Source of the DNA: Thermoplasmatales archaeon
Lineage (GTDB): Archaea > Thermoplasmatota > E2 > DHVEG-1
Length of the DNA: 64,000 nucleotides
Reading direction: 5' to 3'
NCBI GenBank assembly: GCA_020350825.1
Contig: CP070724.1
Span: 2,012,848 to 2,076,847 of the forward strand
Shown: piece by piece, positions 47,621 through 51,540 of the stretch
Layout: each line of letters starts with the position of its first letter
Position numbering within the stretch: the first letter of the stretch is position 1
Notes under the pieces: model-generated
Told to the model about the DNA's origin: nothing
The model's database searches: none
What the model saw: the letters and a program-made list of their open reading frames with translations, nothing else
Position numbers and translations under genes: made by a program

Positions 47621-47824
47621 TTAACTTCCTCTTTGTTGATATCTCTTAATGAAATTCTCTACACTTCGATTATACGTCTTTTCTATATCATCTGGGAAAA
47701 AACATGCTGGAACTTCGCCCCGACTCCAGTGATACTTTAGACATTCACAGCACATACCTTTTTTATCACATGAATAAGTACAGTTGCAAACCATTTTGTT
47801 CTTTTCTACATTGCATTCTACCAT
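47621..47824 (-). CDS. small cysteine-rich protein, co-transcribed downstream of ligA
   Basis: 67 aa with 8 Cys ([21 protein letters not shown]...C). 9-nt gap after ligA. Confidence 0.45.
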
Positions 47825-47833
47825 ACTACACCT

Positions 47834-49822
47834 CTATTTTCCAACTAATTTCTTAAATTCTTCTTCGTCAAGGATTGTAAGTCCCAATTTTTTTGCCTTT
47901 TCAAATTTTGAGCCTGGTTTCTCACCCACAACAACATAATCTGTATCTCTGCTAACAGAAGAAGAAACAATACCTCCTTTTTGTTTAACAAAATCTGATG
48001 CATCTGGACGTGATAATGATTGTAATCTTCCCGTGAAAACAAATTTCTTTCCCTTCAGTGGCATATTTTCTGTGGTTATAACTTCCTGTGTTTTAATTCC
48101 AATATCCTTTAGTTTGGAAATAAGTTCGTTGTTTTCCTCTGTGCCAAAAAAAGTACCAATAGCTTCCGCTGTTTTATCACCAAGACCATGAATTTCCCTG
48201 AGTTCCTCAATATCTGTTATTGCAAGTTTATCAATTGAATTATATTGTGACGCGAGCAATTGAGCGGCATATTTTCCTACATGTCTTATGCCAAGACCAT
48301 AAATCAAACGGGACAAACTCTGATTTTTACTTTTCTCAATTGAATCAATTAAGTTTTGGGCAGATTTCTCTTTGAAACCCTCTAAAGTTAAAATATCTTC
48401 TTTTTTAAGGGTGTACAAATCTGCGATATTGTTGATAAAATCATTTTCAATAAGTTTATCAATAGTCGATTCACCTAAATGATCAATATCCATTGCGTCT
48501 CTTGATGCGTAGTATTTTATTCGCCATTTCAAACGAGCTGGACACATACGATTTGGACATCGGACGGCAACCTCATCTTCGGTGTGAATGATTTTTGATC
48601 CGCAAATAGGACATTTTTTTGGTATTCTTCTTGCTTTTTCATTACCTTCTCTTTTTTCTTTTATGCTTTTTACTACCTGTGGTATAACATCTCCACTGCG
48701 TTCAACTAACACCACATCTCCAATTTTGACATCCTTTCTTTTTAGTTCGTCAAAGTTATGTAGTGTTGCTCTTGAAACAGTAACTCCCCCAACGGGAACT
48801 GGTTCTAAGATTGCCACAGGGGTTAACGTACCTGTTCTCCCAACCTGAATAGCAATATCCTTAAGTCTTGTGGTAGCTTGTTTTGCGGCAAATTTATAGG
48901 CAATTGCCCACCGCGGATGTTTTATTGTTTCCCCAAGTTCTTTCTGTTTTGCCAATGAGTTTACTTTGATTACTGCGCCATCGATTTCATAATCAATCGT
49001 CTCACGTTTTTTTTCAAGTTCCACACAATATTTGATAGCTTCCTCCATGTTCTCTACTTTTTTTACCAATGGATTAACGCGGAAACCTGCCTCTTGTAAA
49101 GCTTTTATAGCTTTTTCATGGGTTAGAAATTCTTTGTCAGAGAACGATATAGAATAGACAAAAATATTCAATGGTCGTGATGCTACGATTTTAGGATCAA
49201 GCTGTCTTAAAGAACCGGCGGCAGCATTACGAGGATTTGCAAAAACAGCTTCTCTTTTCTCAGCTTGCATCCTGTTATATTTTTTAAAGCCTTCCAAGGG
49301 AAAATAAACTTCACCACGTACCTCTACATTTTTTAAGGTTATCCCTCTTAACTTAAGAGGTATACTAAGGATGGTTTTGAGATTGGAGGTTATATCATCT
49401 CCTCCCACACCATCGCCTCTTGTTAACCCTCTCACTAAAATGCTATTCTCGTAAAGAAGGGCAACGCCTGTACCATCAATTTTTGGTTCAACAACATACT
49501 GAACATCTCCAACATTCTTTTTGACCCGTTCATCAAACTCCCGTAACTCATCATATGTGTATGTGTTATCAAGAGAGAGCATTGCCTTCTTATGTTCAAC
49601 TGTAGTAAAACCTTCCAGGGGCTCTCCGCCAACTCGTTGAGTTGGAGAGTCAGGAGTTACTAAATCAGGAAACTTGTCTTCTAAAGATTCGAGTTCTTTT
49701 AATAATTGATCAAATTCGTAATCGGAAATAACAGGATTGTTTTCCACGTAATACTTGTAATTATGATAATTTATCTCATCACGAAGTTTTTTTATTCTTT
49801 TTTTTGCATCCTTTTTATTCAT
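47834..49822 (-). CDS. ligA: NAD+-dependent DNA ligase (bacterial LigA type)
   Basis: Ia domain YHNYKYYV, adenylation motif EPKIDG, Zn finger CPICGS...C, HhH and C-terminal BRCT. Confidence 0.95.
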
Positions 49823-51540
49823 TATTCCACACTGAATATCTCTTCAATTTCTTTCAAACGATACGTGTTAAGTATATCACTTTTTTCCAGCCCTCCTCTT
49901 CGGGCAGTTGCAACTCCAAAATACATAAAGGACAAATTCACAAAACTATGTGAGTCAGTACCAAGAACAACTTTTACACCTTTCTCTTTAGCAACCTTTG
50001 AATGTATATCATTTAGATCAAGACGATCAGGAAATGCATTAATCTCTAAAAATGTACCTGTATTTCTAGCTGTATCAATAATCTGTTCTATGTCAACCTC
50101 ATACGGACCTCTTCTACCAATCAAACGACCGGTAGGATGAGCAAGGAAATGTACATACTTATTTTCCATCCCTCTAGTAATTCTCTTGGTCATCTCCTCC
50201 CTGCCCATTTTGAAAGCAGAATGAATACCAATGGATACAATATCAAACTTTTTTAGAATCCTGTCGCTGTAATCTAAAGATCCGTCAGATTTTATATCAC
50301 ATTCAGTACCACAGAAAATTCTAAAATTTGAAATCTTTTTGTTTAATTTTCTAATCTCATCAATCTTTTTATCAACTTTTTCTTCCGGTAATCCGTTTGC
50401 GATTTTCAGAGATTGGGAATGATCAGTAATACAAACAAACGAATACCCCATATTTTTAGCAACTTTTGCGATATCTTCAATTGAGTCGTTACCATCACTC
50501 CAGGAAGAGTGGATATGAAAGTCCCCCCTAACATCGTCGTATTTGACTAGCTTGGGTAAACTGCCCTTTTTAGCTAACTCCATCTCACCTTTGTTTTCTC
50601 TTAACTCAGGCTCAATATAAGAAAGTCCTAGCATTGTATATATCTCCTCCTCAGCCTCACCTGCAACATACTTTTCGGTTTCTTTATCAAAAAGACCGTA
50701 CTCGTTAAGCTTATATCCTTTCTTTATTGCTAAACTGCGCATTTTCACATTATGCTCTTTAGAGCCAGTGAAATATTGAAGTGCTGAACCATAACTTTTG
50801 TTTGAAACAACACGAAGATCAACCTGAAGGTTGTCATGCAATAATACGCTTGTTTTTGTAATCCCTTTTAACAACACACGTTGAACATCATCGTACTTTA
50901 CAAAATAATCCATAACGTCATCTGGATATTTCGATGATGCGAGGATATCAATATCACCGATTGTTTCTTTCATCCTGCGAAGACTCCCAGCAATACTTAT
51001 TTTATTTATTTTGTCACATTCTTTCAAGTAATCCAAATAATTATTTCCATCACTATATGCAACATTCAATAGTGCTCGTCCACTCGTCTTTTCCAGAAGT
51101 TGTATACCACGTAAAATATTCCTTTCCGTTATTTCACCAAAACCATCAAGGTCTCTTAATTTTCCGTCAATACATGCTTTTCTAAGTTCTTTAATTGTTG
51201 AAATACTAAAATTCTCATATAAAGCAGAAACTTTTTTAGGACCAAGTCCAGGTATATCCAATAAAGCCAGCAATCCCTCTGGAATTTCCTTTTTTAGTTT
51301 TTCAAAATATTCTAATCTACCTATATCAACTAACTCTTTTATCTTCTTAGCCAGAGCCTCTCCAACCCCAGGAATAGATTGAAGTCGATCCTCATTTGAA
51401 ATAGCCTCAATATCTTCATCCAATGCTTCTATCGTCTGAGCAGCTATCCTATATGCCCTTGTTTTAAAGAATATCTCACCCTTCAAATCCAATAAATCTG
51501 CAATCTTGTACAAAATCTCTGCAACAAACTGGTTTTTCAT
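49822..51540 (-). CDS. polX: family X DNA polymerase (Pol beta-like) with C-terminal PHP phosphoesterase domain
   Basis: N-terminal 8-kDa/HhH region ...[12 protein letters not shown]...[10 protein letters not shown]-terminal PHP with [11 protein letters not shown]...HPTGR. Overlaps ligA by 1 nt. Confidence 0.9.

What the first reader, a model, noticed from the sequence alone, without database searches (positions are those of the whole stretch)
47621..51540. Bacterial-type DNA repair operon: PolX(PHP) - NAD+-dependent LigA - small Cys-rich protein
Archaea normally use ATP-dependent ligases. Here a full bacterial LigA (KIDG, Zn finger, HhH, BRCT) is translationally linked (1-nt overlap) to a family-X polymerase with a PHP domain. 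A 67-aa, 8-cysteine protein follows after 9 nt. This is a gap-filling and ligation module of apparently bacterial origin. The Cys-rich tail gene is uncharacterised.
Basis: partly seen in the sequence, partly recalled or inferred. Interest (0 to 1): 0.6.

Follow-up and report, generated by a model that had tools for sequence, protein, structure and literature searches.

The report
Archaeal PolX–LigA–small Cys protein operon
[quoted passage not shown] This is a real but only moderately new variant of polymerase–ligase repair pairings already known.

Summary
The minus strand carries intact PolX (49822-51540), LigA (47834-49822, TAATG 1-nt overlap) and a 67-aa protein with 8 Cys (47621-47824, 9 nt downstream, with an RBS).

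The host is a Thermoplasmatota archaeon, and both enzymes are bacterial-type with all catalytic residues present. But the three genes are the tail of a five-gene cluster (wHTH–riboflavin kinase–PolX–LigA–DUF6485).

LigA here belongs to one of two large archaea-only LigA clades that are about 49% identical to each other. In some close relatives the other clade's ligA fills the same slot, which is a whole-gene swap.

Archaeal LigA is already known from haloarchaea, Marine Group II and "Ca. M. alvus". PolX–ligase linkage is also known, from Methanomicrobia (with an ATP-dependent ligase) and from a giant-virus PolX–NAD-ligase fusion.

The Cys-rich protein is Pfam DUF6485. It is a widespread stand-alone family with a confident predicted fold and no PDB match, and it sits next to ligA only in this clade.

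The most likely function is short-patch gap repair: end cleaning, filling and sealing. Whether LigA is also the replicative ligase could not be tested. Interest is moderate.

The parts
49822..51540 (-). polX: canonical family-X DNA polymerase with a C-terminal PHP nuclease domain (572 aa)
   Evidence: It scores 570.7 bits against NCBIfam NF006375. It aligns colinearly with T. thermophilus PolX 3AU2 over residues 1-563, E 1.6e-136. The palm Asp residues D196, D198 and D241 are present. All nine PHP metal ligands are present: H342, H344, D349, H374, E413, H440, H468, D529, H531.
47834..49822 (-). ligA: NAD+-dependent DNA ligase (662 aa). Its start codon overlaps the polX stop codon by 1 nt.
   Evidence: It scores 871 bits against NF005932 and 855 bits against TIGR00575. 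It aligns colinearly with E. coli LigA 2OWO, E 8e-172. It has the KxDG lysine K114, the Zn finger C404/C407/C422/C427, domain Ia, the OB fold, HhH and BRCT. The junction reads TAATG.
47621..47824 (-). DUF6485 gene: 67-aa protein with 8 Cys and 1 His, presumed metal-binding, function unknown
   Evidence: It scores 32.5 bits against Pfam PF20095, gathering score 24. Near-invariant residues across 73 diverse members are C4, N9, C13, C15, C19, G23, C25, C26, C28, H32, P39, C41, F43, E48 and R53. The AlphaFold2 model has pLDDT 93 and pTM 0.77 and shows four short helices. Foldseek finds no match in the PDB. An AGGTG RBS lies in the 9-nt spacer.
51554..52216 (-). Upstream gene of the same cluster: CTP-dependent riboflavin kinase with an N-terminal winged-helix domain (RbkR-like), 13 nt before polX
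   Evidence: It matches Pfam CTP-dep_RFKase at 3.3e-42 plus MarR-like HTH domains. It scores 242 bits against NF010762, below that model's cut-off of 279. It is syntenic in all related loci.
52236..52469 (-). First gene of the cluster: 77-aa winged-helix protein (HTH_45), 19 nt before the kinase gene and divergent from the NOG1 GTPase gene (52515-53480, + strand)
   Evidence: It matches Pfam HTH_45 at 5.8e-7. It is syntenic in related loci.
47535..47560 (-). T-rich stretch (ttttcttttatttttt, approximate coordinates) about 65-85 nt after the DUF6485 stop. It is a candidate archaeal oligo-T terminator closing the unit.
   Evidence: Read directly from the sequence. This is an inference and was not tested.

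Best explanation
The three genes are the distal part of a five-gene operon, wHTH – wHTH-riboflavin kinase – polX – ligA – DUF6485. The operon is a conserved feature of one uncultured Thermoplasmatota lineage. The gingipain-rich window suggests Thermoprofundales/MBG-D, but that placement is my inference.

PolX and LigA most likely act as a short-patch repair pair on nicked, gapped or abasic DNA:
1. The PHP domain cleans the 3' end. In characterised bacterial PolX it provides AP-endonuclease, 3'-phosphodiesterase/phosphatase and 3'-5' exonuclease activities.
2. The Pol-beta-like core fills the 1-to-few-nucleotide gap.
3. LigA seals the nick using NAD+.
Tight spacing or overlap of the two genes gives coupled expression.

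The pair was put together inside archaea from separately acquired bacterial-type genes. The arrangement is under selection, because it survives replacement of the whole ligA gene by a different LigA lineage.

DUF6485 is a small Zn- or Fe-S-type metal-binding protein that is co-expressed. Its role is not established. It may be an accessory or sensor, or a passenger.

Shown: gene integrity, catalytic residues, synteny, the two LigA clades and the swap. Inferred: all enzymatic activities, co-transcription, the pathway, and metal binding.
For: - Intact catalytic machinery in both enzymes.
- Gene spacing in the window is 19, 13, -1 and 9 nt. In relatives, polX-ligA gaps run from -4 to 24 nt and ligA-DUF6485 gaps from 2 to 29 nt.
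- All 17 metagenome loci that hold ligA before DUF6485 and have enough upstream DNA also carry polX, the kinase gene and the wHTH gene in the same order. The same holds for L001, L004, L008, L009, L017, L018 and L119.
- The slot is refilled. L047, L080, L099, L108 and L119 keep the operon but carry a LigA only 49-50% identical, uniformly along its length.
- The PolX of L080 is 85% identical to that of L059, whose LigA is type 1. The two LigA types are monophyletic together in only 9 of 200 bootstraps.
- Precedents. The bacterial PolX PHP domain has AP-endonuclease, 3'-exonuclease and phosphatase activities (PMC6616362 abstract). PolX is associated with a DNA ligase in Methanomicrobia operons (PMC9226535). 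A giant-virus PolX–NAD+-ligase fusion performs gap filling plus ligation in reconstituted BER (PMC5537341).
Against: - There are no expression or biochemical data. No archaeal PolX has been characterised (PMC9226535).
- The operon also holds a riboflavin kinase/regulator and a wHTH gene with no obvious repair role, so co-transcription may reflect genome compaction rather than shared function.
- LigA may be the general (replicative) ligase rather than a dedicated repair ligase. A type-2 LigA lies directly after an RFC-like AAA+ gene and near an OB-fold ssDNA-binding-like gene and PolD DP2 in L117. Marine Group II is tabulated with a NAD ligase and no ATP-dependent ligase (PMC4153887).
- DUF6485 has no repair-linked context outside this clade.
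Confidence: 0.6

Rival explanations
1. LigA is the cell's main, replicative ligase. It would have replaced or now backs up the ancestral ATP-dependent ligase. Its position next to polX would then be a by-product of conserved synteny, or reflect Okazaki-fragment and gap processing, rather than a dedicated repair module.
For: - Two large Thermoplasmatota-only LigA clades exist, each with more than 120 clusters at 90% identity. That is the pattern of a fixed housekeeping gene.
- In L117, ligA follows an RFC-like AAA+ gene by about 40 nt and lies near an OB-fold SSB/RPA-like gene and PolD DP2.
- Borrel et al. 2014, Table 3, list Marine Group II with a bacterial-type NAD ligase and no ATP-dependent ligase found (PMC4153887).
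- In Haloferax the two ligases share an essential function, according to the title of Zhao et al. 2006 as cited in PMC3914693.
- No ORF of 500 aa or more in the 64-kb window is an ATP-dependent ligase. A motif scan of all loci fetched up to that point, plus the window, found none.
Against: - The window covers under 3% of a 2.32-Mb contig, so absence there says nothing about the genome.
- The Marine Group II genome in that table was incomplete.
- This reading is compatible with the best explanation rather than exclusive of it, because one ligase could serve both jobs.
- The strict polX-ligA adjacency across a ligA swap argues that the pairing itself matters.
Confidence: 0.3
2. PolX–LigA–Cys-rich protein is a bacterial repair cassette that was moved as a unit into this archaeon.
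For: - All three families are mainly bacterial.
- The nearest non-archaeal LigA and PolX are bacterial, at about 48% identity.
- Thermoplasmatota PolX is sister to a Zixibacteria PolX in 239 of 300 bootstraps.
- Zixibacteria carry ligA and polX within 4-5 kb on the same strand.
- An Omnitrophota DUF6485 is 64% identical.
Against: - No bacterial locus examined has the three genes, or any two of them, adjacent. This covers 15 ligA loci and 54 DUF6485 loci without ligA.
- The Zixibacteria genes are separated by a methyltransferase gene and two unassigned ORFs.
- Identity to bacteria is under 50%, while the archaeal clade spans 64-100%. Any transfer therefore long predates this genome.
- ligA has been exchanged independently of its neighbours.
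- The bacterial sample was small. For LigA it was also biased by the search patterns used.
Confidence: 0.07
3. DUF6485 is a dedicated accessory subunit of the PolX–LigA machinery. It could be a Zn/Fe-S adaptor, a redox or damage sensor, or a regulator of the ligase.
For: - It lies immediately after ligA in every operon locus that reaches that far, with its own RBS.
- It is retained after the ligA swap.
- Genes downstream of it differ between loci, so it travels with the operon rather than with the downstream neighbourhood.
- It is very strongly conserved, with 8 Cys and 1 His near-invariant.
Against: - Outside this clade the family sits beside unrelated genes: RNase PH/ThiC/CinA, Mrp/NUBPL ATPase, radical SAM, metH/gidA and PFK/HisRS.
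- Type-2 LigA occurs without it in L115 and L117.
- It has no detectable nucleic-acid-binding or known fold.
Confidence: 0.25

Closest known systems
PolX–DNA ligase operons of Methanomicrobia (Prostova et al. 2022, PMC9226535)
   Same: An archaeal canonical PolX with a PHP domain is encoded next to a DNA ligase, which suggests gap filling coupled to sealing.
   Different: There the partner is the native ATP-dependent ligase. Here it is a bacterial-type NAD+-dependent LigA, in Thermoplasmatota, with a trailing DUF6485 gene. The PolX clade also differs, because it is not the main haloarchaeal-type group.
[quoted passage not shown]
   Same: A family-X polymerase is combined with an NAD+-dependent ligase. 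The paper shows experimentally that it fills and seals single-nucleotide BER gaps.
   Different: PgVPolX is a single fused viral polypeptide with no PHP domain and with dRP/AP lyase activity. Here there are two separate full-length cellular genes with overlapping stop and start codons.
Haloferax volcanii LigN and other archaeal NAD+-dependent ligases (PMC1684257, PMC3914693; Marine Group II and Ca. Methanomethylophilus alvus in PMC4153887)
   Same: A bacterial-type LigA is fixed in an archaeal lineage after horizontal transfer.
   Different: This is a different host lineage. The window LigA scores below the cut-off of the second LigA equivalog NF010931 (748.8 against 1051). I recall that model as the haloarchaeal one, which was not verified. 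Linkage to polX has not been reported for those cases in the texts I read.
Bacterial PolX of Thermus thermophilus (3AU2) and Bacillus subtilis
   Same: It has the same domain order and all catalytic residues, and it aligns colinearly over 563 residues.
   Different: In Bacilli and Clostridia the usual neighbours are zapA and mutS2 (PMC9226535; also seen for S. aureus), not ligA.

Membership tests
NAD+-dependent DNA ligase LigA | Reaches the curated equivalog cut-off and is full length | tested here: met
   NF005932 scores 871.2 bits (cut-off 369). TIGR00575 scores 855 bits (cut-off 444). The match covers residues 8-659.
NAD+-dependent DNA ligase LigA | Adenylation domain with the KxDG lysine, plus the N-terminal Ia (NMN-binding) domain | tested here: met
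   The motif is K114-I-D-G. Pfam DNA_ligase_aden matches at 2.4e-92 and Nlig-Ia at 2e-8. The protein aligns with E. coli LigA from residue 7.
NAD+-dependent DNA ligase LigA | OB fold, Cys4 zinc finger, HhH and BRCT domains | tested here: met
   All four Pfam domains score above their cut-offs. The zinc-finger cysteines are C404, C407, C422 and C427.
NAD+-dependent DNA ligase LigA | Uses NAD+ and not ATP as the adenylate donor | not testable with these tools
   This needs an enzyme assay.
Canonical bacterial/archaeal PolX (Pol-beta-like core plus PHP) | Reaches the curated equivalog cut-off | tested here: met
   NF006375 scores 570.7 bits (cut-off 426) over residues 6-568.
Canonical bacterial/archaeal PolX (Pol-beta-like core plus PHP) | Three palm acidic residues. 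These separate canonical from noncanonical PolX (PMC9226535). | tested here: met
   D196, D198 and D241 align with the GDLDFL and VDLRVV motifs of T. thermophilus PolX. The Pfam palm model itself scores only 21.8 bits, below its cut-off of 25.
Canonical bacterial/archaeal PolX (Pol-beta-like core plus PHP) | Nine His/Asp/Glu metal ligands of the PHP active site | tested here: met
   H342, H344, D349, H374, E413, H440, H468, D529 and H531 are conserved in the alignment to 3AU2.
Canonical bacterial/archaeal PolX (Pol-beta-like core plus PHP) | Gap-filling polymerase activity and PHP nuclease activities | not testable with these tools
   This needs biochemistry. No archaeal PolX has been characterised (PMC9226535).
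Pfam DUF6485 (PF20095) | Scores above the gathering threshold and shares the family's Cys/His pattern | tested here: met
   It scores 32.5 bits against a gathering score of 24. C4, C13, C15, C19, C25, C26, C28, H32 and C41 are at least 90% conserved across 73 members.
Imported bacterial polX-ligA-DUF6485 cassette | The same gene adjacency exists in bacterial genomes | tested here: not met
   None of 15 bacterial ligA loci has the adjacency. 54 DUF6485 loci lack ligA. The sample is limited.
Haloarchaeal LigN-type LigA | Reaches the cut-off of the separate LigA equivalog NF010931. My recollection that this is the haloarchaeal model was not verified here. | tested here: not met
   It scores 748.8 bits against a cut-off of 1051. 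No haloarchaeal LigN sequence was available for a tree.
Anti-phage defence system component | Matches a PADLOC model over most of the protein | tested here: not met
   Only a BRCT-level hit for LigA and wHTH-level hits for the upstream genes. PolX and DUF6485 have no hits.

The most novel reading that the evidence does not exclude
In this widespread sediment lineage, and possibly in much of the uncultured Thermoplasmatota, a bacterial NAD+-dependent LigA has become the principal, replicative DNA ligase. It would be held in an operon with PolX. The ligA slot has been refilled at least once by a second, independently derived LigA lineage through in-situ whole-gene replacement. DUF6485 would be a new metal-cluster accessory factor of this polymerase–ligase pair.
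Probability: 0.2. Interest if true: 0.65.

Novelty: new variant of a known kind. Interest (0 to 1): 0.38.

Why it matters
Archaeal DNA replication and repair are usually described as eukaryote-like and dependent on ATP-dependent ligases. This work shows a large, globally distributed group of sediment archaea that keeps a bacterial-type ligase welded to a bacterial-type gap-filling polymerase, and the arrangement persists even when the ligase gene itself is exchanged.

This points to a selected PolX–LigA functional pair, the cellular counterpart of the giant-virus PolX–ligase fusion. It offers a natural test case for how foreign repair or replication enzymes are integrated into archaeal DNA metabolism, including whether they displace the native ligase.

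It also gives DUF6485 its first reproducible genomic association. DUF6485 is a widespread, highly conserved 8-Cys protein with a confident predicted fold and no PDB match in the one fold search available.

None of this is a new kind of system, and all three genes are already annotated in public records.

Tried and rejected
- Exact look-ups of the window LigA and of its 100%-identical database entry P0195 found no contig. The assembly accession and the rest of the 2.32-Mb genome could therefore not be reached.
- The presence or absence of an ATP-dependent ligase in this genome could not be tested. No ORF of 500 aa or more in the window is one. A motif scan of the loci fetched up to that point found none, which is uninformative for the genome.
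- A PDB profile search for DUF6485 gave only a non-significant eL37 zinc-ribbon resemblance, E 0.17. I rejected it as chance.
- The metagenome scan with the diverse alignment A2 failed for lack of a conserved stretch. It was repeated with A1.
- I considered a mosaic or recombinant ligA in L080, because blastn continued into the 5' end of ligA. I rejected it, because protein identity to the type-1 LigA is uniformly about 50% along the gene.
- I looked for a DNA-repair theme among the DUF6485 neighbours in 54 non-ligA loci and found none. The neighbours are mixed housekeeping and cofactor genes. An impression of enrichment for Fe-S, B12 or flavin-related neighbours was not tested statistically.
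- Defence-system and phage-family membership were checked and rejected.
- The supplementary tables of PMC9226535 held no entry for LigA domains or Thermoplasmata next to PolX.
- Literature searches for DUF6485, and for LigA in Thermoprofundales or Thermoplasmatota, found nothing relevant.
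Full report
**1. Observation**

The ORF list for 44-55 kb shows three consecutive minus-strand ORFs at exactly the reported coordinates. They are 49822-51540 (572 aa), 47834-49822 (662 aa) and 47621-47824 (67 aa).

The first reaches the NCBIfam PolX equivalog: NF006375, 570.7 bits, cut-off 426. The second reaches the LigA equivalogs: NF005932 at 871 bits and TIGR00575 at 855 bits. Pfam finds every expected domain. For PolX these are HHH_8, HHH_5, the thumb and PHP. For LigA they are Nlig-Ia, the adenylation domain, OB, the C4 zinc finger, HHH_2 and BRCT.

The PolX stop and the LigA start share one base (TAATG). The small ORF starts 9 nt after the LigA stop, and the spacer contains AGGTG.

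The small ORF matches Pfam DUF6485 above its gathering score (32.5 bits against 24). It has Cys at positions 4, 13, 15, 19, 25, 26, 28 and 41 and His at 32.

**2. Integrity of the enzymes**

PolX aligns colinearly with Thermus thermophilus PolX (3AU2) over residues 1-563, E 1.6e-136.
- The three palm aspartates are present: D196, D198 and D241.
- The nine PHP metal ligands are present: H342, H344, D349, H374, E413, H440, H468, D529 and H531.
- It is therefore a canonical PolX in the sense of Prostova et al. 2022 (PMC9226535).
- The Pfam palm model alone is sub-threshold at 21.8 bits, but the residues are there.

LigA aligns with E. coli LigA (2OWO) over residues 7-661, E 8e-172. It has K114 in KIDG and the zinc-finger cysteines C404, C407, C422 and C427.

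**3. Host and surroundings**

The window is archaeal. It encodes TiaS, an RLI-type ABC ATPase, a NOG1 GTPase and a CTP-dependent riboflavin kinase.

A 100% identical LigA (P0195) is deposited as 'MAG: Thermoplasmatales archaeon' on a 2,320,818-bp contig. The closest GTDB genomes are Thermoplasmatota MAGs at 75-95% LigA identity.

The window also holds two gingipain-type C25 peptidases and a PKD-bearing M14 carboxypeptidase. Such peptidases are typical of Thermoprofundales/MBG-D according to PMC9585477. That placement is my inference.

Composition is even across the region, at about 33-37% G+C.

The three genes are the tail of a longer unit. A 77-aa HTH_45 gene (52236-52469) and a wHTH–riboflavin kinase gene (51554-52216) lie on the same strand, with gaps of 19 and 13 nt. 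A T-rich run follows the DUF6485 stop. The NOG1 gene is divergent.

**4. Conservation of the arrangement**

The order wHTH–kinase–PolX–LigA–DUF6485 recurs in L001, L004, L008, L009 and L017. L018 shows the same order as far as its contig reaches.

A metagenome scan with the DUF6485 alignment returned 80 loci.
- 26 of them have ligA directly upstream of DUF6485.
- All 17 of those with enough upstream DNA also have polX, the kinase gene and the wHTH gene in order.
- PolX identities to the window range from 64 to 91% and LigA identities from 65 to 95%.

Genes downstream of DUF6485 differ between loci, so DUF6485 belongs with the operon. Called-gene spacings are -4 to 24 nt for polX-ligA and 2 to 29 nt for ligA-DUF6485.

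**5. An unexpected finding: two LigA lineages and a swap**

L047, L080, L099, L108 and L119 keep the operon, with PolX 62-73% identical to the window's. Their LigA is only 49-50% identical, uniformly along its length.

In an NJ tree with 15 bacterial LigAs, each archaeal type is monophyletic in 200 of 200 bootstraps. The two types group together in only 9 of 200.

The PolX tree nests the 'type-2' loci among 'type-1' loci. The PolX of L080 is 85% identical to that of L059, whose LigA is type 1.

A database search with the L080 LigA shows that type 2 is itself a large clade. It has more than 120 clusters at 67-100% identity. Every named hit is Thermoplasmata or Thermoplasmatota, apart from one labelled Promethearchaeota. 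The window's type is equally large.

The ligA slot has therefore been refilled by whole-gene replacement while its neighbours stayed in place. I read this as selection for a NAD ligase beside PolX. The trees are distance-based, and the bacterial sampling is small.

Outside the operon, type-2 ligA occurs in two other settings.
- In L115 it stands alone beside malic-enzyme and Toprim genes.
- In L117 it lies directly after an RFC-like AAA+ gene, near an OB-fold SSB/RPA-like gene and PolD DP2.

**6. Origin**

The nearest bacterial LigAs are about 48% identical: Zixibacteria, Desulfobulbaceae, Melainabacteria and Clostridia.

PolX is 43-48% identical to bacterial PolX (Zixibacteria, Methylocystis, Sinorhizobium, Peptoclostridium). 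It is 37-40% identical to haloarchaeal PolX.

In a small NJ tree:
- the Thermoplasmatota PolX clade is monophyletic in 300 of 300 bootstraps;
- it is sister to the Zixibacteria sequence in 239 of 300;
- it joins haloarchaeal PolX in 1 of 300;
- the haloarchaeal sequences sit with Streptomyces, which matches the remark in PMC9226535 that the main archaeal group is distantly related to actinobacterial PolX.

Both enzymes are thus bacterial-type, but each forms a deep archaea-only clade.

No bacterial locus examined has the genes adjacent. In Zixibacteria, ligA and polX are 4-5 kb apart with a methyltransferase gene and two unassigned ORFs between them. The cassette-import idea is therefore not supported. 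The operon was assembled in archaea.

**7. DUF6485**

The family has 418 representatives at E ≤ 1e-3 in the 1.84-billion-protein library. The 150 best hits listed are all 50-136 aa, and one is a tandem duplicate. Across 73 diverse members, C4, N9, C13, C15, C19, G23, C25, C26, C28, H32, P39, C41, F43, E48 and R53 are at least 90% conserved.

AlphaFold2 with that alignment gives pLDDT 93 and pTM 0.77, with four short helices. With the shallow alignment the model reached only pLDDT 72.8.

- Foldseek finds no PDB match.
- A profile search of PDB sequences gives only E 0.17 to eL37.
- NCBIfam, PHROGs and PADLOC give nothing.
- The literature search gives nothing.

54 loci carry DUF6485 without ligA.
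- A recurrent bacterial context, seen in about 12 loci, is transketolase / transglutaminase-like / RNase_H_2 (opposite strand) / DUF6485 / RNase PH / ThiC / CinA / SAM decarboxylase / agmatinase.
- Other contexts are a CbiA-like ATPase with a radical SAM gene, metH…gidA, an Mrp/NUBPL ATPase, PFK…HisRS, and a Ski2-like helicase.

No family recurs across these contexts. The pattern of eight Cys and one His argues for a structural or redox metal site, but that is inference. Its link to ligA is specific to this clade.

**8. Mechanism**

The best-supported reading is a short-patch repair pair. This rests on established knowledge of bacterial PolX and on the experimentally shown PolX–NAD-ligase fusion of PgV.
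- According to PMC6616362, the PHP domain provides AP-endonuclease, 3'-phosphodiesterase/phosphatase and 3'-5' exonuclease activities.
- PMC5537341 reports gap filling plus ligation in reconstituted BER by the PgV fusion.

In this reading PHP cleans the 3' end, the Pol-beta-like core fills the gap, and LigA seals the nick with NAD+.

LigA may also be the general ligase of these cells. Marine Group II is tabulated with a bacterial NAD ligase and no ATP-dependent ligase found (PMC4153887, Table 3), and the L117 context is replication-like. I could not test for an ATP-dependent ligase in this genome.

**9. Comparison and novelty**

Archaeal LigA is known from Halobacteriales (PMC3914693; LigN, PMC1684257), from Marine Group II and from Ca. 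M. alvus (PMC4153887).

PolX occurs in 31% of complete archaeal genomes. In Methanomicrobia it is associated with an ATP-dependent ligase (PMC9226535).

As far as my searches reach, three things are new:
- the PolX–LigA (NAD) operon in Thermoplasmatota;
- its persistence through a ligA swap;
- the trailing DUF6485 gene.

The genes themselves are already annotated in public records. I rate this a new variant of a known kind, of moderate interest.

Noticed in passing
L047, L080, L099, L108, L119 versus window 47834-49822: Some close relatives keep the whole operon but carry a different LigA lineage, only 49-50% identical. By PolX these genomes nest among genomes with the window's LigA type. This looks like in-situ whole-gene replacement of ligA.
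   Followed up: yes
L117 5660-9073 and 11594-16073: In another Thermoplasmata contig the type-2 ligA lies about 40 nt after an RFC-like AAA+ gene. An OB-fold SSB/RPA-like gene and the PolD large subunit are nearby. This is a replication-type neighbourhood and hints that LigA may be the replicative ligase there.
   Followed up: partly
window 27290-29719, 60141-62012, 44051-46474, 46662-47438: The window holds two gingipain-type C25 peptidases. It also holds an M14 carboxypeptidase with PKD and CarboxypepD_reg domains, and a further protein with a CarboxypepD_reg domain. This toolkit for degrading extracellular protein is typical of MBG-D/Thermoprofundales.
   Followed up: partly
window 51554-52216: The gene just upstream of polX is a CTP-dependent riboflavin kinase fused to an N-terminal winged-helix domain (RbkR-like). 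It is strictly syntenic with polX in all relatives. Why a flavin kinase/regulator shares an operon with repair genes is unexplained.
   Followed up: no
L013, L027, L028 (Zixibacteria): ligA and polX lie 4-5 kb apart on the same strand, with a methyltransferase gene and unassigned ORFs between them. The Zixibacteria PolX is the nearest bacterial relative of the archaeal PolX in my small tree.
   Followed up: partly
L050, L053, L056, L057, L071-L073, L075, L077, L090, L093 and others: A second conserved DUF6485 context occurs in bacteria. The gene is divergent from an RNase_H_2-superfamily exonuclease-like gene and is followed by RNase PH, ThiC, CinA, SAM decarboxylase and agmatinase genes.
   Followed up: partly
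P0045 (128 aa): One DUF6485 family member is a tandem duplication of the domain, with two matched stretches. Every other listed member is a single short domain.
   Followed up: no
window 36381-39051: Adjacent genes encode a saccharopine dehydrogenase-like protein and an AlaDH/PNT-like protein. They may act in lysine or polyamine metabolism. They are not related to the finding.
   Followed up: no
P0405: One type-2 LigA is labelled 'Promethearchaeota archaeon' (Asgard) on a 3.2-kb contig. This is either a binning error or a further transfer between archaeal phyla.
   Followed up: no
L119 1906-3276: An IS66-family transposase gene is inserted next to the NOG1 gene, just outside the conserved operon, in one type-2 locus.
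   Followed up: no
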